Shown here: piece after piece, positions 15,292 to 59,877 of the stretch
Position numbering within the stretch: position 1 is the stretch's first letter
Layout of the letters: every line of letters starts with the position of its first letter
Source of the DNA: a virus
Taxonomy: Duplodnaviria; Caudoviricetes
IMG/VR virus record: IMGVR_UViG_2645728093_000001
Coordinates: 1 to 64,000 of that record
Direction: 5' to 3' (one strand)
DNA: 64,000 nt
The notes under the pieces: generated by a model
What the model was told of the DNA's origin: nothing
Database searches by the model: none
What the model saw: the letters and a program-made list of their open reading frames with translations, nothing else
Translations under genes and position numbers: made by a program

Positions 15292-15368
<77 letters not shown>

Positions 15369-33595: not shown

Positions 33596-33838
33596 GTGAG
33601 CATGAAGCTGAACGCGCGCGAACTCGAGCTTCAGGCGCTAAGAGTGCGCAGGTACGAGGCGGCGCAGGCCCTCAAGCGCGAGCTCGACGCCAAGGATGCC
33701 GCGGCGGTCGCGCAGGACGCGGCAGCCAAGCCCCCGGCGTCGGCGGCGAAGCCGGCCAAAAAGGCGGCTGCGAAAAGTAGGCGCAGCCGGGCCTCGAGCA
33801 AAATCGGCCGTAGCCGGGGATCTCGCAAGAAGTCGTAG
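33596..33838 (+). CDS. Small basic hypothetical protein
   Basis: GGAGG ribosome site; 3' end runs into the first island repeats. Confidence 0.45.
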   Translation: MSMKLNARELELQALRVRRYEAAQALKRELDAKDAAAVAQDAAAKPPASAAKPAKKAAAKSRRSRASSKIGRSRGSRKKS

Positions 33839-33846
33839 CCGGGGGA

Positions 33847-34056
33847 CTAACGGAGTCGCAGTTCGCGCTCGATCGCCGGTTGACGGTTCATGAGTTCCTG
33901 GACGCAGGGAGGGACGGGATCCTTCCGGCCCAGCGCGGCGCCGGTCGCCACCGCATCTGAGGCGCGGCGCGCAAGCTGCAGCCAACCGAATAGTGCAGCG
34001 GTCGGCATTGCCCGGATTTGGTCGAGATTAGGTGGCGTTGTCGTTGCAGTGAGCAT
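33847..34056 (-). CDS. Hypothetical protein, last gene of the island
   Basis: Stop codon abuts repeat B. Confidence 0.5.
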   Translation of the reverse strand: MLTATTTPPNLDQIRAMPTAALFGWLQLARRASDAVATGAALGRKDPVPPCVQELMNRQPAIERELRLR

Positions 34057-34104
34057 GCGCCGCTGGTGGCAGCAGGACTAGTCCGACAATCAGAGCCAGG
34101 CGCC

Positions 34105-34446
34105 TCATGCCTCTTCCTCGTCGATGTCGGCCGGCATCTGCCGAAGCTTCTGATATGGGAAGGCTCCGAGCTCGGGATGTAGCCGGTCCTCCTCGATCAT
34201 CGCCGCGGCAGCCATTCGCGCCGTTCCCTTCGCCTCCGGGAGCGTCATCAACGTCAGCGCGATCGGCACCCAGGTCGGAATGTCCTGAAGCTTCCCGTCC
34301 GCTCCGCTCCGGCCCCATCGGTTCACGGTGACAAGATTCTGGCACCATATCCTGGCGAAGGCTTTCCGTGTCAGGCCCTGCCGCTCAAGCTCGCGATCGA
34401 AATCCTCGCAGGCGATCTTCTTGTGTCTGAAGCGTGGCGGGGCCAT
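34105..34446 (-). CDS. HTH protein (Aca-like small regulator)
   Basis: EDFDRELERQGLTRKAFARIWCQNLVTVNRWG...IPTWV..AL; strong ribosome site preceded by hairpin A. Confidence 0.7.
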   Translation of the reverse strand: MAPPRFRHKKIACEDFDRELERQGLTRKAFARIWCQNLVTVNRWGRSGADGKLQDIPTWVPIALTLMTLPEAKGTARMAAAAMIEEDRLHPELGAFPYQKLRQMPADIDEEEA

Positions 34447-34568
34447 CACGGTCCTCCTTTTCGGTTGGGCACAGTCGCCCGAAATCGGCCGTAGCCGAGG
34501 GTATGGCGGATAGGTGGAGCGGAGTCGAGTCCGCGCCGGGCCGGCAAAATCGGCCGTAGCCGAGGGGG

Positions 34569-34934
34569 TCAAAGCCCCTTGAGCGGTGACACGAAGGACT
34601 TACCGTCCATCGCGATGGTCGAGATCTCGCCGGGCCCTTCGATCATGCGCAGCCATTCCCCCTCGGATCCGGTGAAGCCTGGCCCGGCCTCGACGTGGTG
34701 CGCGGCCAGCCACTTCGCGAGATCGCGCGCCGAGGCGCAGGGCGGGGAAAGCGGCGTGCCGGCGGTCGTCGTCTCGTAAAGCTGCCAGTGCGTGCAGGCC
34801 TCCGCCGGCCAGGCGGGCATCCGCTGATCGGTTGCCCGCGCCAGCGCGTCGTCCGCCTTGCGCAAGGGGATGTAACGCCGGCCGTTCTTGGGGTGCTGCC
34901 AGTCTGCCGGCACTCGCCTAACCTGCCTGCCCAT
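34569..34934 (-). CDS. Conserved hypothetical phage protein
   Basis: MGRQVRRVPADWQHP...WQLYETTTAGTPLSP...LAKWL. Confidence 0.7.
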   Translation of the reverse strand: MGRQVRRVPADWQHPKNGRRYIPLRKADDALARATDQRMPAWPAEACTHWQLYETTTAGTPLSPPCASARDLAKWLAAHHVEAGPGFTGSEGEWLRMIEGPGEISTIAMDGKSFVSPLKGL

Positions 34935-35212
34935 CAGAATAACGCCCCCTGGGCGGGTGGCGGCTCTGCAGCGGCAGCCAGGCGGCCGAGATGCTCGACC
35001 GTCTCGGCGATGATCCGCTCGCGGTCGTCGTCGACCAGCAGCCAACCATCATCACTGCCGGCGGGATCGTAAACCACGAAGTTGCCGCCCCATTTCGCAT
35101 GCACGCCTTCGGCAACCCGGCGGACGAATGGCGGGACGTCTGTAACCGCTTTGAAGTCGGCCCAAGACGCGATTTTGTAGCCGGCCGTGGCGATGATCTC
35201 CTCGGCGGTCAT
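34934..35212 (-). CDS. Hypothetical protein
   Basis: Coupled ORF. Confidence 0.65.
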   Translation of the reverse strand: MTAEEIIATAGYKIASWADFKAVTDVPPFVRRVAEGVHAKWGGNFVVYDPAGSDDGWLLVDDDRERIIAETVEHLGRLAAAAEPPPAQGALF

Positions 35213-35397
35213 GATCCGCCTCCCTCTGCGCGTTCGAGATTGGCCTGAAGGTCCCAGGCCTCATAGATAGCCCGTCGTGCCTCCGTGAGTTTCGCTCGCA
35301 CCTCCGGCAACAGCCGCTTGTCTTCGGCATCGACGACGCGCGCGACGGCGTCCAAAAGTCTATTGTAGACGTCCCAGTGGAATGGATGCTTCCGCAT
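35209..35397 (-). CDS. Hypothetical protein
   Basis: GAGGAG ribosome site; starts MRKHPFHW. Confidence 0.6.
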   Translation of the reverse strand: MRKHPFHWDVYNRLLDAVARVVDAEDKRLLPEVRAKLTEARRAIYEAWDLQANLERAEGGGS

Positions 35398-35460
35398 GCG
35401 GGATACTCCTCTCAAAAATCAGTCGTAGGGAAGGGGTGACGAAGTAGGCGCAGCCGGGGC

Positions 35461-35838
35461 TCAAATAAACCTGCCGCAATCGATGCACCGGCCGCGTCCG
35501 TCGTCGCGGTGCCGGCACGGCTTGAACGCTTCCGCCTCTGTGTCCGACCAAGCCCGCTCGGTTTCCGTGGCGATGTCCCAGCGCCCGCAGAACGAGGCGA
35601 GGTAAGCGCGCTGCTCTTCCGTCAGTTTTTCGTCGTGCAAGTGCTCGTCGGCGCTCCCCAGGTTGAGGCCTTGCTCCTGATTCCAGCGTGCATATTCCCG
35701 GATGAGCAGATTAATCGGGCCGTCGTCATTGCCTGGCAATTGCTCCGGTGCCGGCTTGGCATTGGCGCCGCCGAGCGCTTCGATGATGCCGGCGCGCGCG
35801 CCTTCGATTGGTCCGGAAAGCTTCTTGTTGTCGGTCAT
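35461..35838 (-). CDS. Hypothetical protein (C-terminal Cys motif)
   Basis: AAGGAGGA ribosome site; flanked by B repeats. Confidence 0.65.
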   Translation of the reverse strand: MTDNKKLSGPIEGARAGIIEALGGANAKPAPEQLPGNDDGPINLLIREYARWNQEQGLNLGSADEHLHDEKLTEEQRAYLASFCGRWDIATETERAWSDTEAEAFKPCRHRDDGRGRCIDCGRFI

Positions 35839-35897
35839 GGTCGGAATCCTCCTTTTGCAAAATTGGCCGTAGGCGAGGGGAAGGCGCAGCCGGGGGA

Positions 35898-37844
35898 TTA
35901 TCCCGGCGGCCCCTCGATCACGAGCAAGGCGGTATTCACGGAGGTCCCAGCATGCTTAAACGATCCCGCCGGGAGGTCGCGCCACTCCGAGGCAATCGGC
36001 ATCAGCTTGTCCCGCTGGCGCGGACCGTTGGCGCAGATCGCGACGAGCCGGCCGCCAGGTTTCAAAAATTTGCGGGCGTGCTCGATATGCTGGATGTCCG
36101 CGCCGCGCTCGAACGGCGGGTTCATGATGATGCGGTCGAACTTATCGACCGCGCCGGCCATGTCCATGAAATCAGCATTGATGATGGTCACGCCCTGCTG
36201 TGATCGGCCGAGAGTTTGCGCAACCTGGTGATTGATCTCAATCGCCACGATGTCGAGCGACCCGGCGCCATGGACGCGCGCGGCCTCGATGAGCGCACCC
36301 GTTCCCGCGCTTGGCTCCAAGATGCGATGGCCAGGCCTGATGTCGGCCAACTCTGCAACCTCGGCCGCGAGTTCGGGCGAAGTCGGGAAGAGTTGCGGCG
36401 CAACCACGACTTGCACGCCGCCGCCTTTCAGCATGGCCCGCATTGCCTCAAAATCAGCCGTAGGCGAGGCCGCCGGCAAATCGGCCGTAGCCGGGAGGGA
36501 GTCGAGCGCATCGACCAAGACGGGGCGCGGTGCAGGCGCAACCGGGGCCAGGGTAGCAGCTGGCTCGGCCGTTTCCTGCGGCTCGCCCATGATCTCCGAA
36601 ACCAGCGAAAGCGCGGCATCGAGATCGGCGTCCGGCGTCGCGACGTTCTCGCGGACGAATTCCGCCGGGCTTTGCGGTTGGCCGTGATCCTTGCTGTCAG
36701 TCAGATAGACCGCGACCAAAGAATGCTTGACCATAGCTGTGCGGAAGCGGTGCGACTTGTCCGCGCTCCACCGCGCGCCCTTATAGTCTTTGTTGATGCG
36801 CGCATATTCAGCCTTGGTCATATCGACTTGCGGATAGGTGGTGGTCCGGCCGCGGTCGTACATATTCGTTGTCGTGATTTCTCCGCCAGGGGCGCGATAA
36901 TTCAACAACGGCGGGAGTTCGCGACGCGGTTTCGGTGCCAGCAAGCCGGACGCGCCGGCCTCATCCAACATTGCGCGTTCATAGGCCAAGCGGTTTTCAA
37001 AATGCTCAATCCAGCGATCTTGATGAGGAATCGCGCGCTCATAACCCGGGATGGCGATGGCGGCGGCTTGCGCGGCGGTTATGACGTTACCGTCAATCGC
37101 TGACCAAAGCCCCATGGGGCCTTCATACTGCGAAGCGGGCGGGTCGCGCGGATAGTCGGCGAGCGGGAATGACATTGACCAATAGCCGCCCGCATTTGCA
37201 ACGGTTAGCCCGACCGCGCGCTGCTTCTCAGCATCATTGATGCCGGCCACGATTTGCCATGCCTTGATTTGCTTTTCGGCATTAGCCTTGCTGCGCTCGA
37301 CCTTGCGCTTTTCCGCCTCAATGGTCTTGATGCGACGCGCGCGCACTTCGGGGAGTTCTTTGTATTTCGCATGTGCCAGAGCGCCGGCGGCGCGCCCGGT
37401 CCAATATTGCGACGTCCGCCACATCTGCACGGCTTTGCGCATGCCGGCGTCAATCTTCTCCTTGTCGCGGCGTGCATGCTTCTCCGAATGGTGCCCGACG
37501 AGGATCGGCCGACCAAACGGGATATTGTCCGCGATCTCGGCAACGGCTTTGCGCGCGCGTTCCGCGTCGGCCATGCGCTTTTCGCTGTAGTCCTCAAAGC
37601 GCTCGGCGCGCTGCTCGGCGCGATCGACCAGGCTTGTATCCTCGTCACCGATCTCGCCGCAGAGCTCAATCAGCAAATCCTCGGCGGCCGGCGACCAGGA
37701 CGGCTTGACGAAGAGTTCCTGTTTCGGTGCCCATTTGAAGCCGAGCGCCTCGACGCGTGCATAGGTCTCGGCGTCCAAGCGCTGCGAGGCGTACAGGCGC
37801 AGCTTGTTGTCATCGGGCGAGTAAGTGGCGGAATAGGTGGTCAT
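35898..37844 (-). CDS. DUF3560 domain protein fused to an adenine methyltransferase domain
   Basis: ATYSPDDNKLRLY, IPFGRPILVGHHSEKHARRD; C-terminal FPTS, ILEPSAGTG, MNPPF. Confidence 0.88.
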   Translation of the reverse strand: MTTYSATYSPDDNKLRLYASQRLDAETYARVEALGFKWAPKQELFVKPSWSPAAEDLLIELCGEIGDEDTSLVDRAEQRAERFEDYSEKRMADAERARKAVAEIADNIPFGRPILVGHHSEKHARRDKEKIDAGMRKAVQMWRTSQYWTGRAAGALAHAKYKELPEVRARRIKTIEAEKRKVERSKANAEKQIKAWQIVAGINDAEKQRAVGLTVANAGGYWSMSFPLADYPRDPPASQYEGPMGLWSAIDGNVITAAQAAAIAIPGYERAIPHQDRWIEHFENRLAYERAMLDEAGASGLLAPKPRRELPPLLNYRAPGGEITTTNMYDRGRTTTYPQVDMTKAEYARINKDYKGARWSADKSHRFRTAMVKHSLVAVYLTDSKDHGQPQSPAEFVRENVATPDADLDAALSLVSEIMGEPQETAEPAATLAPVAPAPRPVLVDALDSLPATADLPAASPTADFEAMRAMLKGGGVQVVVAPQLFPTSPELAAEVAELADIRPGHRILEPSAGTGALIEAARVHGAGSLDIVAIEINHQVAQTLGRSQQGVTIINADFMDMAGAVDKFDRIIMNPPFERGADIQHIEHARKFLKPGGRLVAICANGPRQRDKLMPIASEWRDLPAGSFKHAGTSVNTALLVIEGPPG

Positions 37845-37948
37845 GCTCGAAAGCTCCTTTCAGATTGCGCACAATCGCGCGGGGATGCGGTTCATAGGGG
37901 GCCCGCTGAATCTCGTCAACGGGAAAATCAGTCGTAGCCGAGGGGAAA

Positions 37949-38131
37949 TCAATCGTAGCCGGGAGGGCGCAACTCCGGGTGCACTCGGTAGAGCATCGCA
38001 TAGGCGGCATCGCGCGACCGGTGCGCGGAAGTACCGAGCTTGGTGATACTGAGCCAGTCGCCGGCCCATCGCCCGGGGACTTCACTGGCGAGACAGACGC
38101 GCGGTTTGTTGGCCTTGCTTTTCTTTGCCAT
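37949..38131 (-). CDS. Small hypothetical protein
   Basis: Starts MAKKSKANK; 3' end overlaps repeat B. Confidence 0.45.
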   Translation of the reverse strand: MAKKSKANKPRVCLASEVPGRWAGDWLSITKLGTSAHRSRDAAYAMLYRVHPELRPPGYD

Positions 38132-38250
38132 GTGATCAGGCCTGGATTTCGTGGCTTTCGATGATGCAGGCACCATCGAAGGATTCTTCCCAAAGGGCGG
38201 AGATAGCCTCAGCGCCCAACGTGTCGAGATTGTCGGGCATCGGCTTAGCC

Positions 38251-38964
38251 TTATAGCCAGTCCGCAGCCTCGCGCGCGGCGGCGAGCGCTTTGGCTTCCG
38301 TCGCAAAGGCCTCCGTGCCAATCCCCATGTTGTCGCCGTCGGTTGTCAGCGTCCAAACCGTCACGCCGGAAGGCGCAACCGAGGGGGCCGCGGCGCCAGG
38401 CGGGAGCAAAGCGGCATACGCCTTGATCGCGCTCGCGACGGCATCCGCGGCGCGCGCCAATGCCTCGTTTTGCGTGCCGTCGTCGGTCGTCATTTCCGCC
38501 CGCATGGCGTCGCGGTGCGTCTCGGCGATGGATTCCCATGAAGGCGCAGCCGGGGGAGTGTGCGCCTTGAGACGATCCGCGAGCGCTTCCCAGCGCGGAA
38601 TCCATGCGCCGTCTGCAGCCGCGCGCGCGTGGCGGAGGCTGGATTCTACCGCCATCAACAAATGCTGACGTTCCGGCTCGGTGAGCGGCGAAGCGGCATC
38701 GGGCGCCGGCATGGGCCGCAGTGCCTCGCCTTCAAGGCTGATAGAGTCCTCCGGCCATTCCGTGCCGTCATGAGCGACGAAAAGCGATTTCCCGCGCGCG
38801 TCCGTCGTTGTGTGCTGGCCGTCCCAGCACACTTTGGTTTCGTCCATGTGGTTGAATTCGAGCGACCCGTCAGGATTTCGGCCTGTGATCTCGCACCAGG
38901 CGTTGCCGGGGATGAGATCGGCGGTTGCAACGATCTCGCTGCCGGTCGGTGAAAATGCTTTCAT
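38251..38964 (-). CDS. Hypothetical protein
   Basis: Hairpin A and ribosome site precede MKAFSPTG. Confidence 0.7.
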   Translation of the reverse strand: MKAFSPTGSEIVATADLIPGNAWCEITGRNPDGSLEFNHMDETKVCWDGQHTTTDARGKSLFVAHDGTEWPEDSISLEGEALRPMPAPDAASPLTEPERQHLLMAVESSLRHARAAADGAWIPRWEALADRLKAHTPPAAPSWESIAETHRDAMRAEMTTDDGTQNEALARAADAVASAIKAYAALLPPGAAAPSVAPSGVTVWTLTTDGDNMGIGTEAFATEAKALAAAREAADWL

Positions 38965-39066
38965 GATGTTTCGTCCTTTCGCTTTGCGCACTATCGCGCG
39001 TCGGGAAATCAGCTGCAGCCGGGGCTGCGGGTCATCAACGGGAAATCGGCCGTAGCCGAGGGGCGG

Positions 39067-39345
39067 CTAGAGATTCACCTCGTGAAAGCCGGACGCGCCA
39101 GGAAGCTTTTTGAAACCAGGCGGGGAGCGATCGCGGCGGCCGATCCGCATTGACACAACGGCCGGCTTTCCGGTTGCCGCGACGTCGGCGCGGTAAGTCT
39201 CGAATTCGCGCGCGGCGTCCGCGGCGCGCTGTATTTCGACGGTGCGGCCGGGGAACGGCAGCGCGTCGCCGGACAAGCAAAGATGAACCGAAACGAAAGC
39301 GCCGTTACGCTCGGCCGGATAGCTGCTCAGGATCAATTTAGCCAT
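39067..39345 (-). CDS. Hypothetical protein
   Basis: Hairpin A and ribosome site upstream; stop abuts repeat B. Confidence 0.7.
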   Translation of the reverse strand: MAKLILSSYPAERNGAFVSVHLCLSGDALPFPGRTVEIQRAADAAREFETYRADVAATGKPAVVSMRIGRRDRSPPGFKKLPGASGFHEVNL

Positions 39346-39429
39346 TGGGTTAGCTCCTTTCATGGTGCGCACGATTGCGCGTGAAATCGGCCGTAGCCGA
39401 GGGGTTGAGGAAATCAGACGTAGCCGGGA

Positions 39430-39843
39430 CTAGGCCGCCGCGGCGCGCTCCGCCGGCAACTCTTTGGTTTGCGCGACGTCGAAAACCGGGACCATGACGA
39501 AACGGACGGTTGGCGCCTCGGCCGCCTCCGCCGCGCCGGCTTCATTGCTCGGCGCCGAGGCCTCGGCCTTCCGCGCGCCAGTCGGCGCAAAGATGTAAAG
39601 CGCGCTTTGACCTTCCTGGACAACGCGACCGGCCGCAATCCATTGCTGGAAGCCGCCGACCATGGTTGCGGTCTGGCATTGCAGCGCGGCCAAAAGTTGA
39701 TTGTTGCCGGACAACGCGCTGCCGTCGATTGTCAGGATCGGGACGCGCGCCAGCCATTGCGCCTTTTGTTCATCCGTCATGTTGGCAATCTGTTGCGCCA
39801 ACTGGCGCGCCTTTTCTTTGTTCGGGTTCTCTTTCTTCCGCAT
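39430..39843 (-). CDS. ArdC N-terminal-like ssDNA-binding protein (anti-restriction associated)
   Basis: S.NNQLL...Q...AT.VGGFQQWIAAGRVVQEGQSALYIFAP...F..VPVFDVAQT. Confidence 0.75.
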   Translation of the reverse strand: MRKKENPNKEKARQLAQQIANMTDEQKAQWLARVPILTIDGSALSGNNQLLAALQCQTATMVGGFQQWIAAGRVVQEGQSALYIFAPTGARKAEASAPSNEAGAAEAAEAPTVRFVMVPVFDVAQTKELPAERAAAA

Positions 39844-39898
39844 GTCGTTTGCTCCTTTCGATTTGCGCACAATCGCGCGATGGAAACGGCCGCGCCGA

Positions 39899-40096
39899 TT
39901 ACTTCCAGGCCTTTGCGATGCGAAGTCCGCCGCCGTCGATAACGTCGCGGGGTTCAAGGCTGGCCAATCCCTCGGCCTCGAATTCGCGCGCCGCGGTTTC
40001 AAACCTATGGCCAGGGTAAAGCAAGACTCCGCCCGGCGCGGCTTGCTTCAATGCGCCAAACAACGCGTTACGTTCTTTAATCGAGGCCTTCCGCAT
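39899..40096 (-). CDS. Small hypothetical protein
   Basis: AAGGA ribosome site following repeat B. Confidence 0.55.
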   Translation of the reverse strand: MRKASIKERNALFGALKQAAPGGVLLYPGHRFETAAREFEAEGLASLEPRDVIDGGGLRIAKAWK

Positions 40097-40158
40097 TTCT
40101 TATCCTTCCGAAATTGGCCGTAGCCGAGGGGGACGCAAAATCAGCCGTAGCCGAGGGG

Positions 40159-41220
40159 TTAGGCCGAGGCGCCAAATCGAGGCGCAACCGGGAGGCGCGC
40201 GATCGGCGCGCCGAGCGATGTTGACGCGAGAAAGCGCGCGGCCAGGCGAGGCGCCGCGGAACGCGCGGCCGGCGCGACGTCCGCCGCGGCCGGTTGCTCG
40301 GCCCGCGCCTCGGCCGCCGTTACCAGCCGGAGGCGCGGCGCCTCGGCCTCGGCCGCCGCAATCCGCGCGCGGCGCCTTTCGAGATAGGCCGCGACCCGCG
40401 CGGCCTTTGCCTCGGCCTTTGCGGCCGCCTCGGCTTGCCGGCGCGCCTCGGCCTCGGCTTTATCGATGGCACGGCGCCGCGCGCCAATCTCAAAATTGCA
40501 CATGCCGGAAAGCCGGAGGCGGCAATCCTCAACCGTTGCCGCCAGCTCGGCCGCGGGGGTTTCATCTGCGCCGGATTGCTCGGCCTCGGCCATCGCGATT
40601 CGGTAATGAACCCGCCAGAATTCGGCGCGCGTTACGGCACCGTCCGGCGCCTTCTCAGGTATTGCCTCGGCCTCGGCCGCAAGCGCGGTTGCGTCGAATG
40701 TGCCGCGGCGCGCCTCGGCCGTCCGTTCGCTGCAATCGGTAGCGTCGAATTCGGCGCCGTTGTCGCACGCGATGGAAGCGATTGCAGGGATTGTGACGAT
40801 ATCGGAATCAGCGGAAAAGGCGCCGGCCGTCCGAGCAATGCGCGCGCGGTAATAAGCGAAAGCAATCCGGAGGCCTCGGCCAATGTTTAGCGGCTTGCCA
40901 GGCAATGAAACGGCCGGCGCGCGGACAACGGCGCCGCATGCGAACGTGACAGTAAGCACGGGCGATTTACCAAGCCGCCGGCCGTTCGCGGATTGCGGAA
41001 TGGCATAATCGGCCCATGGTGCGAAACGGCTTTCCGGCGCCTCGGCCGAGGCTTTGGGCGCGGCTTTGGTGGCAGGGATAGCCAATCGCAGCAAATCCGC
41101 AACGGCGCGCCAGTTAGCCGCGCCAGGATCCTGACAAGCATTGTCATAGGCGAGAATGGCCAGGCCTTTACGTTCGGAGGCTTTCGCCGCGCGCGCGGCC
41201 GTCAAATCAATCTGATGCAT
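40159..41220 (-). CDS. Ala-rich hypothetical protein (353 aa)
   Basis: Hairpin A and ribosome site precede MHQIDL; stop abuts repeat B. Confidence 0.7.
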   Translation of the reverse strand: MHQIDLTAARAAKASERKGLAILAYDNACQDPGAANWRAVADLLRLAIPATKAAPKASAEAPESRFAPWADYAIPQSANGRRLGKSPVLTVTFACGAVVRAPAVSLPGKPLNIGRGLRIAFAYYRARIARTAGAFSADSDIVTIPAIASIACDNGAEFDATDCSERTAEARRGTFDATALAAEAEAIPEKAPDGAVTRAEFWRVHYRIAMAEAEQSGADETPAAELAATVEDCRLRLSGMCNFEIGARRRAIDKAEAEARRQAEAAAKAEAKAARVAAYLERRRARIAAAEAEAPRLRLVTAAEARAEQPAAADVAPAARSAAPRLAARFLASTSLGAPIARLPVAPRFGASA

Positions 41221-41287
41221 GGGAAACGTTCCTTTCGAGTTGCGCACAATCGCGCCGGTTGGATTGCTCGGCCGAGGCCGAGGCGGA

Positions 41288-41587
41288 TTAGCTCTGTAGT
41301 TTGGCCAGGCGCCGCGCGTCGATTGCGGCGCGAATCTCTTTCTTGAACCGGCCGGCATATTGGCCATGAAACGTGCGGGACGTTGCTACCGCGCGATCTA
41401 GCGCAAGCTTTGCGGTCCGGTAGCGCGGCGCGAATTTGATAGCATCGGGGGTCAATCCCATTGCACCGCGCGCGGGAATTCCGAGCTCGGCCGCCAATGT
41501 GTCCCGGATTGCGTCATGGCATGCCGTTGCGTCGCGCAAGGCTTGCTCTAGTGTGGCCGAGGCGGCTTGATACTCTGCAAACGTCAT
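41288..41587 (-). CDS. Hypothetical protein
   Basis: GAGGGG ribosome site; G.MGLTPDAIK motif. Confidence 0.65.
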   Translation of the reverse strand: MTFAEYQAASATLEQALRDATACHDAIRDTLAAELGIPARGAMGLTPDAIKFAPRYRTAKLALDRAVATSRTFHGQYAGRFKKEIRAAIDARRLAKLQS

Positions 41588-41601
41588 TGCCTGGTTTCCC
41601 C

Positions 41602-41940
41602 TCAATAGCCGGCCGCCTCGGCCGCATAATCCCGCTGGCCAGTTTCGCCCGGTTGCCAATCGGGAAACCGCGCGCCGTTTTCCGTATCGTCATAACCGGC
41701 CGCCAATCGGTCCGCGGGACAATGGCAGCTGCCATGCTGGGTTAGCCGGCCGTCACAATCGGCGCCGTCTTTGCACCAATCGTTGACAACGGTCCGCCCG
41801 TCGAATGAAAACGCATTGCTTTCGCGGTGCCATCCTTCGTCCGTGCGGCCGCCGTGCGAATGGTGCAAGGTCTGGCCGGACCGAATCTTGATCTTGACCA
41901 ATCCAGACTTGTGATAATGCCAGAAGCGCGCGGTTTGCAT
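41602..41940 (-). CDS. Hypothetical protein
   Basis: GAAAGGA ribosome site; TDEGW...DCDG...QRDYAAEAAGY. Confidence 0.7.
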   Translation of the reverse strand: MQTARFWHYHKSGLVKIKIRSGQTLHHSHGGRTDEGWHRESNAFSFDGRTVVNDWCKDGADCDGRLTQHGSCHCPADRLAAGYDDTENGARFPDWQPGETGQRDYAAEAAGY

Positions 41941-41954
41941 GCGGCGGTATCCTT

Positions 41955-42296
41955 TCAAGGTAATGCGTTGAAATTGGTCCGATAGGTCGCGGCTTCCAAG
42001 ACGCAACGTCGCGCGGCTTCCAGATTGATAACGCGCCCCATGGGATAGCGTTGCGCGGTCCGCCTATATTCCGCCGCCCATGCCAAAGCGTCCACCGCCA
42101 ACGCGCGCCTAGGCCGCTCAGAAAGGCGAGATGTACGGAGGTAGTAGCGCGGCATGCGGCCGGGCGGACGTTCTGCCGTAATGATAAAGCGGACTCCGCC
42201 CGCAACGAAGTCGCGGCCGATTCCGTACTGTTGAACGGCCGCGCGGGTTTCCGCTCGCAAGCCTTGCATCAGTTTCCGATAAGCCGCGCGATTCAT
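41955..42296 (-). CDS. Hypothetical protein
   Basis: ATGA-coupled to the upstream gene. Confidence 0.6.
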   Translation of the reverse strand: MNRAAYRKLMQGLRAETRAAVQQYGIGRDFVAGGVRFIITAERPPGRMPRYYLRTSRLSERPRRALAVDALAWAAEYRRTAQRYPMGRVINLEAARRCVLEAATYRTNFNALP

Positions 42297-42691
42297 GCCG
42301 CTTGCTCCATTTCGCAAACCGGAGTCCAACCCGTGGCCACGTCATAAGAGGCCGCGCGCGCGATCATGGGCGGCCGGCGCAATTCATCGTCCGCCGCAAT
42401 TATGCCGTAGCGTTCCGGCGCCGCGTCAAGTTTGGCCATTTGCGCCATGTGCTCGGCCGCGCGCCAGGCATTGAAGGCCGCGACGATATCAGCCGGCAAT
42501 GGATCAATGCTGCGCACAAGCATTCCGATTCCCGTCCGCATGGCGCGGCGGACGTCGTCACCGTTCGCAATCGACAGCTCATAATCCGAGACGCTGTGAC
42601 GGATTGAGGCCTCAAAGGTTTCGGTCGCGGTTGTGACGCGATAGTAAACCGTTCCCATGAATGAGCATTGCCATTTGAAACGTGGAGTCAT
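42293..42691 (-). CDS. Hypothetical protein
   Basis: Hairpin A and ribosome site upstream. Confidence 0.7.
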   Translation of the reverse strand: MTPRFKWQCSFMGTVYYRVTTATETFEASIRHSVSDYELSIANGDDVRRAMRTGIGMLVRSIDPLPADIVAAFNAWRAAEHMAQMAKLDAAPERYGIIAADDELRRPPMIARAASYDVATGWTPVCEMEQAA

Positions 42692-42728
42692 GGTCTAGCC
42701 TTTCGAGTTGCGCACAATCGCGCGGGTT

Positions 42729-42971
42729 CTATTCGGAAAAATACGGTTTGCGGTCCCCAGCCTTGCGCGCCTCGGCCTTCGTTCTATTGTCAAGCCTTCC
42801 TTCGCACGCGCAAAGATGCATTAGGCAAGCGCCGAGTTCCGACGCGGCGTCACCGTAGTTAAGCCCGCGCTTTATTTGCTTTCCATACTGGACCGTGAAT
42901 TGGTCGAATCCGGTTTGGATCAATCGAACGGGGAAGCCGGAGGAAAGCTCTTCAAAGCAAACATTTCGCAT
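42729..42971 (-). CDS. Hypothetical protein
   Basis: GGAGG ribosome site; FTVQYGKQ...L.Y..AA.ELG.C.MH motif. Confidence 0.7.
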   Translation of the reverse strand: MRNVCFEELSSGFPVRLIQTGFDQFTVQYGKQIKRGLNYGDAASELGACLMHLCACEGRLDNRTKAEARKAGDRKPYFSE

Positions 42972-42974
42972 GCT

Positions 42975-43172
42975 TTAGCCTCCCGTTGCTTCGTCAAAGC
43001 GCGCGGCTTCAAAATCGCGGCTAGCTTGCTCGGCCTCGGCGCCGGTCAACATGGCGCGGGAGGTAGGATAGTAGAAAACGCGCGTTCCCTTTGGGATGAA
43101 AACCCCTTTCCTATCACTGCCGGGATATTTGGTAATGATCCATCGCGGATCGCCGCCGACATGCTTTCGCAT
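42975..43172 (-). CDS. Hypothetical protein
   Basis: Hairpin A and ribosome site upstream; DPRWI.TKYPG motif. Confidence 0.7.
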   Translation of the reverse strand: MRKHVGGDPRWIITKYPGSDRKGVFIPKGTRVFYYPTSRAMLTGAEAEQASRDFEAARFDEATGG

Positions 43173-43263
43173 TAGGTTTCCTTTCGAGTTGCGCACAATC
43201 GCGCGTTTGGTCCGCCGTGGCGTTCCGTTGTACGGCGCAACGCGGCGCCCCACCGTCGGAACG

Positions 43264-43368
43264 TCAAAGGCAAGAATTCAGAAATGCACGCTTGCCGCTA
43301 CGTGCGACCAATCGGCGAGTCCGCTTATCGTTCGGCTTGCGGTCAGTCTCATGACGGGCATAACGCAT
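43264..43368 (-). CDS. 34-aa basic peptide
   Basis: Hairpin A and ribosome site upstream. Confidence 0.55.
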   Translation of the reverse strand: MRYARHETDRKPNDKRTRRLVARSGKRAFLNSCL

Positions 43369-43461
43369 AGTCGTTTCCTTTCGTGGTTGCGCACAATTGC
43401 GCGGTTTCGGCGGTTTGCCGGCTAAGCCGAGGCGCTGCGGCCTCGGCTTAAACTGCAAACC

Positions 43462-43698
43462 TTAGCTGATACGCTCGCAAGCGCCGTTTTTGGGATTCCA
43501 GCTAATCAACATATCGCCAACCCGGACCGAATAGCCGCGCGACATACGAACGGCGCGCGGTGCGGTCCGGCCGGTTTGCTGCAGCCAACGGCCGCAATCC
43601 CAAGCAATGCCCGATGCACTCGAATGATAGAAAGGATTCCGCGCCTCGGCCGGCGCCTCGAAACCCTGTTTTACCTCGGCCGTCAAATCGGTTGCCAT
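43462..43698 (-). CDS. Hypothetical protein
   Basis: GAGG ribosome site; starts MATDLTAEV. Confidence 0.6.
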   Translation of the reverse strand: MATDLTAEVKQGFEAPAEARNPFYHSSASGIAWDCGRWLQQTGRTAPRAVRMSRGYSVRVGDMLISWNPKNGACERIS

Positions 43699-43708
43699 GG
43701 TCGCGGCC

Positions 43709-43894
43709 TCAAATCGCGATTGCAACGGCAAGGCGCGCGGTGCGGATAGCGTCAATGCGGCGCGCCGGAATGGTGCGATCCGCCGCGGCGATCCGTTCGG
43801 CCAGGCTGATAAGACGGTGCGCGAGGCCGAGGCGGCCGAGCTCGATTGCGTTTGCAGCGTCTAGCAAAAGGCCTTTAACGGTATTGTTTCGCAT
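43709..43894 (-). CDS. Hypothetical protein
   Basis: Hairpin A and ribosome site upstream. Confidence 0.65.
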   Translation of the reverse strand: MRNNTVKGLLLDAANAIELGRLGLAHRLISLAERIAAADRTIPARRIDAIRTARLAVAIAI

Positions 43895-43938
43895 GGTCGT
43901 TTTCCTTCTGAGTTGCGCACAATCGCGCGGGTTGAAAC

Positions 43939-44097
43939 TTAGTAGCGGTTGCGGCGCCGATAGCTCGGCCGGCGCCTCCGGACCGGCGCGCCATATTCGA
44001 CGGCCGCAAGCGCGAGCCAACCGACAACGGCCAGGCCGAAAAGAAACGTTGCCGGCAACATCGGGTTGGCGATGCAAAAGGCGATAAAGGCTTGCAC
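43939..44097 (-). CDS. Small membrane peptide with basic tail
   Basis: GTG start with AAGGG ribosome site; one transmembrane segment. Confidence 0.5.
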   Translation of the reverse strand: MQAFIAFCIANPMLPATFLFGLAVVGWLALAAVEYGAPVRRRRPSYRRRNRY

Positions 44098-44107
44098 GGT
44101 GCGCCCC

Positions 44108-44332
44108 TTAAGCAATCGGCCGCGATTGATCGGCAGAGACTTCGCACAAAACAACGCGATAGAAGGCGCGGGAATTGCGCGGGCGATCTCCGCCGCGAAC
44201 GGCGGAGAAGGCAAGGCGCCGATACATTGCCTCGAAAGCATCAGCCGACGATTTGAGGAAAAGGCGCGCGGTCCAATCGCAACCGGTCAAGGTGCAGCGA
44301 AAGCGGATGTCAAAGGCTTGGCGGCGGGACAT
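44108..44332 (-). CDS. Hypothetical protein, first hairpin-led gene of the island
   Basis: Hairpin A and ribosome site upstream. Confidence 0.6.
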   Translation of the reverse strand: MSRRQAFDIRFRCTLTGCDWTARLFLKSSADAFEAMYRRLAFSAVRGGDRPRNSRAFYRVVLCEVSADQSRPIA

Positions 44333-44379
44333 GTTCGGGCCTTTTCGGTTGCGCACAATCGCGCGTTTCGTGTCCCGCA

Positions 44380-44482
44380 CATGCCTATATCAGCGGCCGG
44401 CCGTCAAGAGGGAAAATGCAATTCAGTGAAAAGAATTTGCGAAAAGCCGGCAACGGCGCCGTTTATGTCACTATCTAGTGAC
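44380..44482 (-). promoter_or_regulatory. Putative island promoter and palindromic operator
   Basis: CTTGACG on minus (44402-44408) with an AT-rich upstream tract, but the -10 match is weak; perfect inverted repeat GTCACTA-TC-TAGTGAC at 44467-44482. Confidence 0.45.
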
Positions 44483-44516: not shown

Positions 44517-44828
44517 TCATTCGCGCATTGCCTTATGCACTCGGCCGAGGCGCCGGACGTCCGCCCATGCATCCGCCGCGCCGATACCGGCAAGCACGGC
44601 GCGACATTTAAGGCCTAGCTCGGCCGTCCCGCCGTTCTGCCGTGCAGCTGTGACGGTATTCGGCGAGATGAATAGAACGGCCGCGGCCTCCCCATTGGAA
44701 AGGTCTAACTCGGCTTGCCATGCCTGGAATTCGGCCGCCGTGATTCGCAGTGCGGTGGCGGCCGAGGCATAGGCGCGGGACCGCGCCAGGGTTTTGCCGG
44801 TTGCGTGCTTTCGAGGCTTAGACGTCAT
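44517..44828 (-). CDS. HTH protein (Aca-like small regulator)
   Basis: ITAAEFQAWQAELDLSNGEAAAVLFISPNTV...LKCRAVLAG. Confidence 0.7.
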   Translation of the reverse strand: MTSKPRKHATGKTLARSRAYASAATALRITAAEFQAWQAELDLSNGEAAAVLFISPNTVTAARQNGGTAELGLKCRAVLAGIGAADAWADVRRLGRVHKAMRE

Positions 44829-59453: not shown

Positions 59454-59876
59454 ATGATGGCGCTGAATATCCCGCAATATCTGCGAACGGCGCTTGGCTT
59501 TGCTCCGTCGAGCAAGACCGAGGGGGCAATTCCTGTCGAGGACATCGGCCTCTATGCTGGCGCAAAAATCGTCTCCATAGCCGGCACGGCGGTGACGCTC
59601 GACAATGATGCGCACCACGCGAGGATATTGGACTTTACGGCCGGATCTGCGGTTACGGTTTCAGTCCCTAACTCGCTACGACCCGACTTTTTCTGTGGCA
59701 TCAGCCAAGGCGGAGCCGGGCAGGTGACTGTTGCGGTGGCCGCGGGGGCCGCAGGAGTCGGCGTCACACTCAACGAACCTAGCAACCAACTGAAGACGTC
59801 GGCCCAGTTCGTGATGCTTTCGCTCATCGCGTTCTCGCGCAACACATTCCGTCTCTTTGGTAGCACGGCCGCCTGA
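59454..59876 (+). CDS. Small beta-rich protein (fibre/accessory-like)
   Basis: AVTVSVP.SL...F.C.I.Q.GAGQVTV motif. Confidence 0.6.
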   Translation: MMALNIPQYLRTALGFAPSSKTEGAIPVEDIGLYAGAKIVSIAGTAVTLDNDAHHARILDFTAGSAVTVSVPNSLRPDFFCGISQGGAGQVTVAVAAGAAGVGVTLNEPSNQLKTSAQFVMLSLIAFSRNTFRLFGSTAA

Positions 59877-59877
59877 A

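What the first reader, a model, noticed from the sequence alone, without database searches (positions are those of the whole stretch)
34467..44365. Eleven start-associated hairpins with covariation, fixed 18-22 nt before ATG
Seen: sense-strand GCGC(G/A)-ANNG-TGCGC followed by AA-N3-GAAAGGA at 34467, 37867, 38986, 39367, 39865, 41242, 42710, 43191, 43389, 43915 and 44351. Variation preserves the pairing: the closing pair is G-U in most copies and A-U at 39367 and 43389; the 34467 copy has a double compensatory change (GGGCG-ACTG-TGCCC); loops vary (AUUG, AUAG, AUCG, ACUG). The G-U pair works only on the coding strand, which points to an RNA or ssDNA structure rather than a dsDNA operator. I did not notice the motif elsewhere in the window. 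Inference: a translational operator/enhancer or processing signal that makes these genes a regulon. Known analogues are mycobacteriophage start-associated sequences and Aca2 binding to 5'-UTR stem-loops.
Basis: partly seen in the sequence, partly recalled or inferred. Interest (0 to 1): 0.88.

Follow-up and report, generated by a model that had tools for sequence, protein, structure and literature searches.

The report
Repeated start-linked RNA hairpin in prophage
A Bradyrhizobium-type temperate phage puts the same 14-base hairpin just before the ribosome-binding site of eleven accessory genes, which looks like an undescribed shared control signal that also marks where gene cassettes are swapped.

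Summary
Ten exact copies of GCGCR-ANNG-TGCGC (0.22 expected) plus the GGGC/GCCC variant lie on the minus strand. Each is followed by AA, an extended Shine-Dalgarno sequence and an ATG 18-22 nt on. A covariance model finds these 11 and nothing else in the window.

The window is part of an 80-kb viral record. The copies head the separately initiated cistrons of an 11-kb leftward accessory block (ArdC-N-like, DUF3560-methyltransferase, many unknowns) between the replication and packaging modules.

Relatives (Bradyrhizobium proviruses and two 54-55% GC uncultured phages) carry 9-13 model matches (E <= 1) each in one block. Stem changes there keep pairing. This favours a sense-strand RNA hairpin over a dsDNA operator. 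Unpaired bases are nearly invariant and the helix is weak (-5 to -6 kcal/mol), which suggests recognition by a factor. My best guess (0.4) is the conserved HTH protein at the end of the block, as with Aca proteins.

Homology breakpoints fall exactly at the hairpin, as with T4 PeSLs. There is no Rfam match, and it is not a host repeat. Function is untested.

The parts
44330..44364 (-). Head 1: hairpin 44351-44364 (GCGCG-ATTG-TGCGC), AACC, GAAAAGG, ATG 44332. A 74-aa ORF of unknown function follows.
   Evidence: 42.8 bits
43892..43928 (-). Head 2: hairpin 43915-43928, AACTC, AGAAGGA, ATG 43894. A 61-aa ORF follows.
   Evidence: 45.6 bits
43366..43402 (-). Head 3: hairpin 43389-43402 (A-U closing pair), ATG 43368. 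A 34-aa Arg/Lys-rich peptide follows, found in all five relatives compared (G001-G005).
43170..43204 (-). Head 4: hairpin 43191-43204, AACTC, GAAAGGA, ATG 43172. A 65-aa ORF follows.
   Evidence: 46.6 bits
42689..42723 (-). Head 5: hairpin 42710-42723, ATG 42691. A 132-aa ORF follows. The upstream stop codon lies 5 nt before the hairpin.
41218..41255 (-). Head 6: hairpin 41242-41255, ATG 41220. A 353-aa Ala-rich ORF follows.
39841..39878 (-). Head 7: hairpin 39865-39878, ATG 39843. A 137-aa ArdC N-terminal-domain-like protein follows.
   Evidence: (PF08401, E 1e-5, 26.2 bits against cut-off 22.6)
39343..39380 (-). Head 8: hairpin 39367-39380 (GCGCA-ATCG-TGCGC), ATG 39345. A 92-aa ORF follows. 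Two motif-B copies lie just upstream.
38962..38999 (-). Head 9: hairpin 38986-38999 (loop ATAG), ATG 38964. A 237-aa ORF follows.
37842..37880 (-). Head 10: hairpin 37867-37880, ATG 37844. A 648-aa DUF3560 + methyltransferase fusion follows. By eye, a TTGACG-17-TATGAA site (37891-37919) ends 10 nt upstream of the hairpin.
   Evidence: (PF12083, E 2e-35). The promoter-like site was read and was not found by the scan.
34444..34480 (-). Head 11: variant hairpin 34467-34480 (GGGCG-ACTG-TGCCC, pair 2 swapped to G-C), ATG 34446.
   Evidence: 35.6 bits. The same swap stands before the orthologue in 8 proviruses and in G002. G001 and L232 have GGCA/UGCC there.
34105..34446 (-). Gene 'F5': a 113-aa helix-turn-helix-like protein, last conserved gene of the block. 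It is my candidate trans factor.
   Evidence: Detected in 10 of 10 related blocks. It has 50 homologue clusters; the named ones are mostly Bradyrhizobium 'hypothetical protein' and none has a Pfam domain. The AF2 model has pLDDT 86.7. Foldseek matches are weak: HigA2, Aca1, Aca2, MqsA (E 0.3-1.9).
44517..44828 (-). Gene 'F3': a 103-aa Xre-like HTH candidate directly upstream of the block's first promoter-like site.
   Evidence: Pfam PF20432 matches only below its cut-off (E 0.0095, 16.7 bits against 25.8). Orthologues were found in 6 of 10 relatives' fetched stretches.
44379..44407 (-). Promoter-like site before head 1: TTGACG (44402-44407), 17 nt, GCATGT (44379-44384). It ends 14 nt upstream of the hairpin.
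   Evidence: Read by eye. TTGACR and the hexamer are conserved before the first head in relatives. The strict sigma-70 scan did not call it.

Best explanation
The 14-mer is transcribed as part of the leftward accessory-gene mRNA. There it folds into a small stem-loop: a 4-5 bp stem GCGC(R)/(U)GCGC with a loop of 4-6 nt. This forms the 5' edge of a portable translation-start module (hairpin, AA, 3-5 nt, GAAAGGA, 5-9 nt, ATG). The module heads every cistron in the block that is not translationally coupled to its neighbour.

I think the hairpin is most likely an operator. A factor encoded by the block binds all heads and so sets the translation, and perhaps the stability, of the whole cassette array together, as Aca2 and Aca1 do on acr operons. 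The best candidate is the conserved HTH protein F5 at the distal end, whose own head carries a variant stem. Where the hairpin lies just downstream of a promoter-like site (heads 1 and 10), the same protein could also act on the DNA.

Because every cassette carries the same head, the head also serves as the homologous joint at which cassettes are exchanged.

Shown: the repeat, its placement, conserved pairing with compensatory changes, its restriction to this phage family, and breakpoints at the hairpin. Inferred: folding in mRNA, the trans factor and its identity, and the direction of the effect.
For: (1) Placement. 11 of 11 copies lie 18-22 nt before ATG. Across relatives, 74 of 80 distinct copies have a start codon (ATG 71, GTG 3) with an ORF of at least 29 aa 15-25 nt downstream; the other 6 precede shorter ORFs. 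By my reading of the gene list, every intergenic gap of 37 nt or more in the block holds hairpin A and/or motif B, and gaps of 14 nt or less hold neither.

(2) Pairing. 400 of 400 stem cells pair in 80 copies, with C-G/G-C swaps and G-U/U-G. On the model-fitted alignment that includes G001 and G002, 98.6% of cells pair, against 3-93% when the 3' partner is slid. G001 and G002 show UCGCA...UGCGA, UGGCA...UGCCG, GGCU...GGCC, GGCA...UGCC and GCGA...UCGC at the same place.

(3) Recognition rather than mere structure. The unpaired A6, G9 and A15 are invariant and A16 is at least 90% conserved in 80 copies. The proteins of the same blocks are only 37-85% identical. The helix is worth only -5.3 to -6.1 kcal/mol and forms with probability 0.31-0.97 in context.

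(4) Phage-specific. In two Bradyrhizobium genomes the strong hits cluster in one prophage block of about 10 kb each.

(5) Candidate factor. F5 is the only block protein detected in 10 of 10 relatives, is the last conserved gene, and has an XRE-type HTH fold with weak matches to HigA2, Aca1 and Aca2.

(6) Precedent. Aca2 and Aca1 bind 5'-UTR stem-loops, and RNA motifs are predicted between genes inside anti-defence operons (PMC13551039, passages read).
Against: No binding, expression or 5'-end data exist. The F5 structural matches are weak (Foldseek E 0.3-0.8, none at or below 0.001). F5 has no Pfam or PDB sequence match. The co-occurrence of F5 with the arrays is confounded by shared ancestry, since all arrays belong to one syntenic phage family.

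In G001 and G002 the stems and loops differ within one genome (loops UAC, AUACG, AUCA, AUUC, AUUU, CUUAA; position-5 mismatches C or U). A strict sequence reader should not tolerate that, and it fits a purely structural role better. In G001 the F5 frame is open for only 53 aa in my ORF call.

Some heads carry motif B instead of the hairpin, so the hairpin is not indispensable for a head. The compensatory events are few: I count about 5-7 independent ones, and the five G-C cells at pair 2 are one inherited event.
Confidence: 0.4

Rival explanations
1. Purely cis-acting RNA element. The hairpin needs no dedicated partner. It marks off the translation-initiation region, keeping the strong SD free of upstream sequence, and/or protects the 5' end of each cistron after processing of the polycistronic mRNA. 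Its sequence is uniform because the copies descend from one another and are homogenised by recombination.
For: The position relative to the SD is fixed and the hairpin is present only at uncoupled cistrons. In G001 and G002 the structure is kept while stem and loop sequences drift within one genome. The SD is partly accessible in predicted ensembles (mean unpaired probability 0.18-0.75). Breakpoints at the hairpin show that copies do recombine.
Against: The helix is weak (-5.3 to -6.1 kcal/mol; predicted to form with probability as low as 0.31-0.44 in 3 of 11 contexts), which is poor for a nuclease barrier or insulator. The unpaired loop and flank bases are invariant over 80 copies. Where a promoter-like site is seen, some 5-8 unpaired nt would precede the hairpin (inference), so it would not be a 5'-terminal protector there.
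Confidence: 0.3
2. Double-stranded DNA operator. The near-palindrome GCGCR-N4-YGCGC is bound by a dimeric repressor that blocks transcription through the block, in the manner of mycobacteriophage L5 stoperators.
For: The site is a 14-bp near-palindrome. Two HTH genes bracket the block. At heads 1 and 10 it lies 10-14 nt downstream of a promoter-like -10 hexamer. Aca1 is solved on 14-bp palindromic DNA (title of entry 7c0g).
Against: Symmetric double changes in both half-sites (G-C for C-G, U-A for G-C) weaken a DNA site twice over but keep a hairpin. Wobble pairs occur only in the sense orientation: pair 5 is G-U 48 / A-U 32, and there are single G-U or U-G pairs at pairs 1 and 4. On the other strand all of these would be A-C mismatches. 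The centre (A6...G9) and the flanks (C before, AA after) are asymmetric and conserved. A roadblock has no need of a fixed spacing to the SD.
Confidence: 0.12
3. Recombination linker only. The conserved head has no expression role. It persists because it provides the short homology at which accessory cassettes are shuffled between related phages, like linker sequences or PeSLs.
For: 15 of 85 blastn segment starts against 8 relatives fall within 7 nt of a hairpin start, where my estimate for chance is about 1. They involve 5 of the 11 heads. One cassette has changed place relative to its neighbours. Cassette content is highly variable between relatives. The phage encodes an exonuclease VIII-like protein.
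Against: This does not explain why pairing is kept by compensatory change, why the element always lies at a set distance from the SD and ATG, or why it occurs only on the sense strand. In part, segments start at the hairpin simply because it is the first conserved base before a conserved gene.
Confidence: 0.08
4. Promoter element. Each hairpin is part of a phage-specific promoter, for example an N4-type DNA-hairpin promoter, so that every cassette is its own transcription unit starting just before the SD.
For: A short conserved element lies about 15-25 nt before each start codon with no conserved sequence further upstream. Hairpin promoters tolerate stem changes (recalled from the N4 literature, not read here).
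Against: I found no RNA polymerase gene. The two largest ORFs are the tape measure and a central tail fibre J-type tail protein, though one 907-aa ORF has no match. On the template strand, 48 of 80 copies would have an A-C mismatch at pair 5. No sigma-70-type promoters were found in the block (0 found, 2.5 expected) and terminator-like sites are not enriched (15 against 14.7), which fits one long operon.
Confidence: 0.04

Closest known systems
Start-associated sequences (SAS) and extended SAS of Cluster K mycobacteriophages (Pope et al. 2011, PMC3203893; passages read)
   Same: There are many copies per genome, in one orientation, confined to non-structural genes and immediately upstream of start codons. 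ATG is strongly preferred (here 71 of 74). The element is conserved across relatives in front of different genes, and its function is unknown.
   Different: SAS is a 13-bp box that contains the SD and ends 3-7 bp from the start codon. ESAS are 17-bp imperfect inverted repeats whose departures do not support RNA pairing, so the authors favoured DNA binding. Here the element is a 14-nt hairpin 15-25 nt before the start, outside the SD, and its variants do keep pairing. The host phylum and the sequence differ.
Aca2 / Aca1 RNA operators in the 5' UTRs of anti-CRISPR operons (PMC13551039, passages read)
   Same: Small conserved stem-loops lie in the 5' UTR and between genes of phage counter-defence operons. 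Variable small genes are followed by a conserved HTH gene. That HTH can read the same sequence as DNA and as RNA.
   Different: No acr or aca homology is shown. F5 resembles Aca1 and Aca2 only weakly by fold. There are eleven copies in one 11-kb array rather than one or two. No separate DNA repeat in a promoter was found. Binding is untested.
PeSL (promoter-early stem-loop) cassettes of T4-type phages (PMC4122927, abstract read; PMC2839356, search listing only)
   Same: A short conserved regulatory motif with a stem-loop flanks small variable ORFs in a plastic region and serves as the point of genetic exchange. Here breakpoints coincide with the hairpin.
   Different: PeSLs are composite terminator/promoter motifs. 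Here there is no promoter consensus and no U-tract, and the hairpin is tied to the ribosome-binding site.
Stoperators of mycobacteriophage L5 and Cluster A (mentioned in PMC3203893; details recalled)
   Same: Many asymmetric copies lie in intergenic spaces, in one orientation relative to transcription.
   Different: Stoperators are 13-bp dsDNA sites without dyad symmetry or pairing constraint, and they are not tied to the SD.
RNase III processing hairpins between T7 early genes; boxB hairpins of lambdoid N antitermination (both recalled, not read here)
   Same: These are intercistronic RNA hairpins ahead of early genes, including an anti-restriction gene. boxB is a GC-stem hairpin of similar size that is read by a phage protein.
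   Different: RNase III sites are far longer helices. nut sites occur twice per genome, carry boxA, and are not linked to the SD.

Membership tests
Cluster K SAS/ESAS | 13-bp asymmetric consensus that contains the SD core and ends 3-7 bp from the start codon | tested here: not met
   The hairpin ends 15-25 nt before the start codon and lies outside the SD. The SAS consensus was taken from the paper's passages.
Cluster K SAS/ESAS | Many co-oriented copies upstream of start codons of non-structural genes | tested here: met
   11 of 11 copies are on the sense strand in the accessory block.
Cluster K SAS/ESAS | ESAS: 17-bp imperfect inverted repeats with a variable spacer, whose departures do not support RNA pairing | tested here: not met
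   The arms are 5 nt, the loop is 4 nt, and 400 of 400 cells pair, with compensatory changes.
Aca-type RNA operator | Conserved stem-loop in the 5' UTR or between genes of a phage counter-defence operon | tested here: inconclusive
   The stem-loop and its placement are met. The 'counter-defence' content rests on an ArdC-N-like domain and a DUF3560-methyltransferase only.
Aca-type RNA operator | The operon encodes a member of a known Aca family | tested here: inconclusive
   F5 has no Pfam, PHROG or PDB sequence match. Foldseek to Aca1 and Aca2 gives E 0.56-0.84.
Aca-type RNA operator | The HTH protein binds the RNA motif and represses translation | not testable with these tools
   This needs EMSA and reporter assays.
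T4-type PeSL | Early promoter consensus joined to a terminator-like stem-loop | tested here: not met
   There are 0 sigma-70-type sites in the block, no conserved sequence upstream of the hairpin, and no U-tract after it.
T4-type PeSL | Flanks variable small ORFs and coincides with recombination breakpoints | tested here: met
   (15 of 85 segment starts within 7 nt of a hairpin start).
Any Rfam family | Match to a curated covariance model | tested here: not met
   Only a tRNA passes at gathering threshold in the window. At E <= 10 in 33.5-45 kb there are five unrelated weak matches, none on a hairpin.
Intrinsic terminator | GC-rich stem followed by a U-tract on the transcribed strand | tested here: not met
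   The hairpin is followed by AA in 78 of 80 copies.
N4-type hairpin promoter | A phage-encoded RNA polymerase that reads a template-strand DNA hairpin | tested here: not met
   The two largest ORFs are the tape measure and a central tail fibre J-type tail protein. On the template strand, 48 of 80 copies would have an A-C at pair 5. Not every ORF was scanned.
Host interspersed repeat | Copies scattered through the host chromosome | tested here: not met
   Strong model hits in two Bradyrhizobium genomes lie in one prophage block each. The scattered weak hits are a different repeat. In all 10 places read, the exact 16-mers in other Bradyrhizobium genomes lie inside open reading frames (peptides AIVRN, AIVRK, AMVRN, AMVRK); four of these carry the ABC-ATPase signature LSGGQRQR.

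The most novel reading that the evidence does not exclude
Every cassette of an 11-kb phage accessory (probably counter-defence) array carries the same plug-in 'head': a 14-nt RNA hairpin read by the array's own HTH protein. Any gene that recombines in at the hairpin then comes at once under the array's shared translational control. One small element would thus serve as both the recombination joint and the regulon-wide RNA operator, a combination not described for SAS, PeSL or Aca systems.
Probability: 0.3. Interest if true: 0.8.

Novelty: new variant of a known kind. Interest (0 to 1): 0.6.

Why it matters
Start-associated repeats in phage accessory regions have stood unexplained since 2011, and for the best-known case the authors could find no support for RNA pairing. 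Here the pairing signal is clear, and the element is small enough for direct tests. Two named cultured hosts carry a prophage with the array (Bradyrhizobium sp. C9 and B. embrapense SEMIA 6208).

If the hairpin is an operator for the block's HTH protein, RNA control of the Aca type would extend from single acr operons to a whole array of eleven or more cistrons. It would also give a simple sequence tag for finding accessory and counter-defence cassettes in uncultured phages. If it is purely cis-acting, it is a compact natural translation-start module that phages use to make newly acquired genes express.

Tried and rejected
1. Wider host-factor idea. The same 14-mer plus an SD-like AAGG stands in a lineage of viral contigs with 48-58% GC (five representatives, L009, L011, L013, L020 and L033, examined here). 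I first took this as a sign of a general host factor. In those five it is the 3' end of an ORF of about 150 codons ending ...SAIVRIS*, and its variable bases are third codon positions. It is a coding coincidence and I dropped it.

2. Exact 16-mers in Bradyrhizobium genomes. 55 of 121 genomes have a match, against 3 of 121 for the reversed control. The tally includes the unpublished G174; without it the count is 54 of 120. All 10 places read lie inside open reading frames (peptides AIVRN, AIVRK, AMVRN, AMVRK; four carry the ABC-ATPase signature LSGGQRQR). Only G006 has an array.

3. Weak model hits (24-27 bits) scattered in G006 and G007 are another host repeat, with no SD or ATG after it.

4. 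A sample of 150 other genomes of the order gave no match at E <= 1e-4. Only 45 candidates per genome were scored, so this is 'not found in those searched'.

5. Deposited phages and plasmids. There is no megablast match of the block. A 43-nt head found only chance pieces. The Rhizobium plasmid hit is an unrelated sequence before a glycosyltransferase gene.

6. Six of the twelve single-copy viral contigs outside the family have no ORF behind the motif. The others (L026, L028, L030, L034, L035, L036) remain ambiguous.

7. Sequencing runs: no RNA holder was listed.

8. Antisense terminator reading: two copies score as terminator-like on the + strand, but the total is not above the shuffles.

9. 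A reading frame through the hairpin is excluded by the variable spacing (15-25 nt) and by the differing open frames.

10. Rows dropped before alignment A1: L042:2396-2431 (inside a coding region, no SD, non-pairing ends) and L096:6550-6585 (a single copy in a Mesorhizobium MAG). This left 80 of 82 regex matches.

11. Literature. Searches found no description of this element. Two papers on Bradyrhizobium temperate phages hold none of the words hairpin, stem-loop or intergenic. Supplements were not seen.

Full report
WHAT IS THERE. The window is the first 64 kb of an 80,032-bp viral record, linear and 89% complete by CheckV, with 63% G+C.

On the minus strand between 44.4 and 34.4 kb lie ten exact copies of GCGC(G/A)A(T)N GTGCGC and one variant, GGGCGACTGTGCCC, at the coordinates given. 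The exact pattern is expected 0.22 times in shuffles, and 0 of 100 shuffles reach 10. At two mismatches the pattern is not enriched (56 found, 65.8 expected). The whole record has no further copy (10 reverse, 0 forward, controls 0).

Each copy is followed by AA (AC once), 3-5 bases, a purine run of the GAAAGGA type and an ATG 18-22 nt after the hairpin. The ATGs open ORFs of 34 to 648 aa.

CONTEXT. The record is a temperate siphovirus-type genome with these parts:
- a CI-like repressor gene, a rightward replication module (sliding clamp, methyltransferase, primase, DnaB) and an exonuclease VIII-like gene;
- rightward packaging and structural genes from 45 kb on: TerL, 60% identical to that of a Labrenzia phage, then portal, major head, tape measure and tail J.

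The hairpins lie in a leftward block of some 23 genes between these two modules. Only three of the gene products have a family:
- an ArdC N-terminal-like protein (PF08401, E 1e-5);
- a DUF3560 + methyltransferase fusion (PF12083, E 2e-35);
- an Xre-like HTH candidate upstream of the block, below its Pfam cut-off.

By my reading of the ORF tables, cistrons separated from their neighbour by 14 nt or less have no hairpin. Every gap of 37 nt or more holds the hairpin, a second repeat (motif B, CCC..CTACGNCNGATT), or both.

The strict promoter scan finds none in the block, and terminator-like sites are not enriched. By eye, heads 1 and 10 lie 14 and 10 nt downstream of TTGACG-17-hexamer sites that recur before the orthologous heads in relatives.

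RELATIVES. A pattern scan of viral contigs found 48 loci. The reversed pattern found none. The multi-copy loci belong to eight provirus records of 43-132 kb and two uncultured phages, G001 (94 kb, terminal repeats) and G002 (105 kb), both at 54-55% G+C.

In genome contigs the multi-copy locus is Bradyrhizobium sp. C9. B. embrapense SEMIA 6208 proved to hold an array too.

A covariance model built from 80 distinct copies finds 9-13 matches at E <= 1 in each of G001-G005, and the significant ones lie in one block. It finds 9 and 11 strong matches in one prophage block of each of the two Bradyrhizobium genomes. In the window it finds exactly the 11 copies.

Across the 80 copies a start codon with an ORF of at least 29 aa follows at 15-25 nt in 74 (ATG 71, GTG 3). 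The other six precede shorter ORFs.

IS IT A HAIRPIN? The selecting pattern allowed non-pairing combinations, yet all 400 stem cells pair in the 80 copies. The pair counts are:
- pair 1: G-C 78, G-U 1, U-G 1;
- pair 2: C-G 75, G-C 5;
- pair 5: G-U 48, A-U 32.
The covariation score exceeds all 500 shuffles.

The five G-C cells are one inherited event. They stand before the orthologues of the 113-aa gene F5.

G001 and G002 add more variants, always directly before AA + SD: UCGCA-AUUC-UGCGA (U-A first pair), UCGCA...UGCGG, UGGCA...UGCCG, GGCA...UGCC, GGCU-GAUUUU-GGCC, GCGA-AUUU-UCGC, GCGCA-UAC-UGCGC, GCGC-AUACG-GCGC and GGGCG-CUUAA-UGCCC. They also show copies with a C or U mismatch at position 5.

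On the model-fitted alignment of 58 distinct matches, 98.6% of cells pair, against 3-93% when the partner is slid. That alignment leans towards the structure.

All wobble pairs work on the sense strand only. I count roughly five to seven independent double or wobble events. That is enough to prefer a folded single strand over a duplex operator, but it is not a large sample.

Because the element is tied to the SD and start codon, the folded strand is most simply the mRNA. This last step is an inference.

WHAT KIND OF HAIRPIN? It is weak: -5.3 to -6.1 kcal/mol alone, and the GCGC stem forms with probability 0.31-0.97 in 90-nt contexts. Yet the unpaired A6, G9 and A15 are invariant and A16 is at least 90% conserved over the 80 copies, while proteins of the same blocks are 37-85% identical. 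That pattern suggests recognition by a factor, or else homogenisation by recombination.

The factor is unlikely to be a general host one:
- strong matches in host genomes are confined to the prophage;
- the scattered weak matches are a different repeat;
- in all ten places read, the exact 16-mers found in 55 of 121 Bradyrhizobium genomes lie inside open reading frames, four of them at the ABC-ATPase signature;
- a look-alike in a lower-GC (48-58%) viral lineage is the coding 3' end of an ORF.

CANDIDATE FACTOR. F5 (34105-34446) is the only block protein detected in 10 of 10 related blocks. It is the last conserved gene of the array, and its own head carries the variant stem. It has 50 homologue clusters; the named ones are mostly Bradyrhizobium 'hypothetical protein', and none has a Pfam domain. 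Its AlphaFold model is confident (pLDDT 86.7). It resembles XRE-type HTH proteins, with HigA2, Aca1, Aca2 and MqsA among the top matches, but only weakly (E 0.3-1.9, none at or below 0.001).

Variable small genes followed by a conserved HTH is the layout of acr-aca operons. Aca2 and Aca1 are reported to bind stem-loops in their 5' UTRs, and RNA motifs are predicted between genes inside such operons (PMC13551039, passages). This is the basis of my preferred reading. It is an analogy, not a test.

CASSETTE EXCHANGE. Gene content between heads differs greatly among relatives. In blastn of the block against eight relatives, 15 of 85 segment starts fall within 7 nt of a hairpin start. My estimate for chance is about 1. 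The 15 starts involve 5 of the 11 heads, and the relatives are not independent. The 65-aa-gene cassette also lies on the other side of its neighbour in L225, L226 and L228. This parallels the PeSL cassettes of T4-type phages (PMC4122927, abstract).

COMPARISON WITH THE KNOWN. The nearest described thing is the SAS/ESAS system of Cluster K mycobacteriophages (PMC3203893, passages). Placement logic, orientation and ATG preference are the same. The defining sequence and distance are not met, and there the authors found that departures did not support RNA pairing.

The element is not a PeSL (no promoter, no U-tract). It matches no Rfam family. It is not a terminator and not a host repeat. No megablast match of the block, and only chance pieces for a 43-nt head, were found in deposited phage genomes or plasmids.

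My literature searches found no description of it. Supplements were closed.

An earlier follow-up in this scan (e1-5897228) reports a covarying mini-hairpin before about 15 non-structural genes of a 77-kb prophage of a root-nodule-type bacterium. It is probably the same kind of element, but I could not compare sequences.

VERDICT. The RNA-hairpin reading is supported by conserved pairing. The function is open. My odds are:
- operator of a block-encoded regulator: 0.4;
- purely cis-acting start module: 0.3;
- dsDNA operator: 0.12;
- recombination linker only: 0.08;
- promoter: 0.04.
I class it as a new variant of a known kind (start-associated phage repeats), with interest 0.6.

Noticed in passing
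window 33796-40163, minus strand: Motif B (sense CCC..CTACGGCCGATTT and variants) occurs about 15 times, often as direct pairs 21-27 nt apart. It lies just after stop codons, and either upstream of hairpin A or directly before an SD in its place. It is also conserved in the 54% GC relatives, where it does not look like a hairpin.
   Followed up: partly
window 36451-36498: A motif-B pair lies in frame inside the DUF3560-methyltransferase gene, in the linker between the two domains (...PATADL...PTADF...). This would fit two cassettes having fused across a former junction.
   Followed up: partly
window 43264-43368, minus strand: A 34-aa Arg/Lys-rich peptide (MRYARHETDRKP...GKRAFLNSCL) is conserved in all five relatives compared (G001-G005; 30-34 aa), each with its own hairpin head. 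It could be a small nucleic-acid-binding peptide.
   Followed up: partly
L218-L222 (B. embrapense and Bradyrhizobium sp. C9 chromosomes): A host interspersed repeat of more than 100 nt contains GCGCGACCTGCGCAA and gives weak model hits. It is unrelated to the phage element.
   Followed up: partly
L244-L253 (Bradyrhizobium genomes): In all ten places read, the 16-mer GCGCGATSGTGCGCAA lies inside an open reading frame (peptides AIVRN, AIVRK, AMVRN, AMVRK). Four of them carry the ABC-ATPase signature LSGGQRQR...GRAIVRN/K. This probably explains most single genome-wide matches to the motif in GC-rich bacteria.
   Followed up: yes
L009, L011, L013, L020, L033: In a viral lineage with 48-58% GC, an ORF of about 150 codons ends ...DANSAIVRIS* with the same 14-mer, overlapping the SD of a phrog_8123 gene. 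It is a coding look-alike of the hairpin.
   Followed up: yes
window 59857-62580, plus strand: A 907-aa ORF between the minor tail and tape-measure genes has no PHROG match.
   Followed up: no
window 15295-15368, minus strand: A tRNA gene (59.4 bits) lies in the leftward early region of the phage.
   Followed up: no
window 43875-44241, minus strand: Gene calls between heads 1 and 2 are ambiguous, with overlapping open frames of 52, 90 and 100 aa. One of these frames runs through hairpin 2.
   Followed up: no
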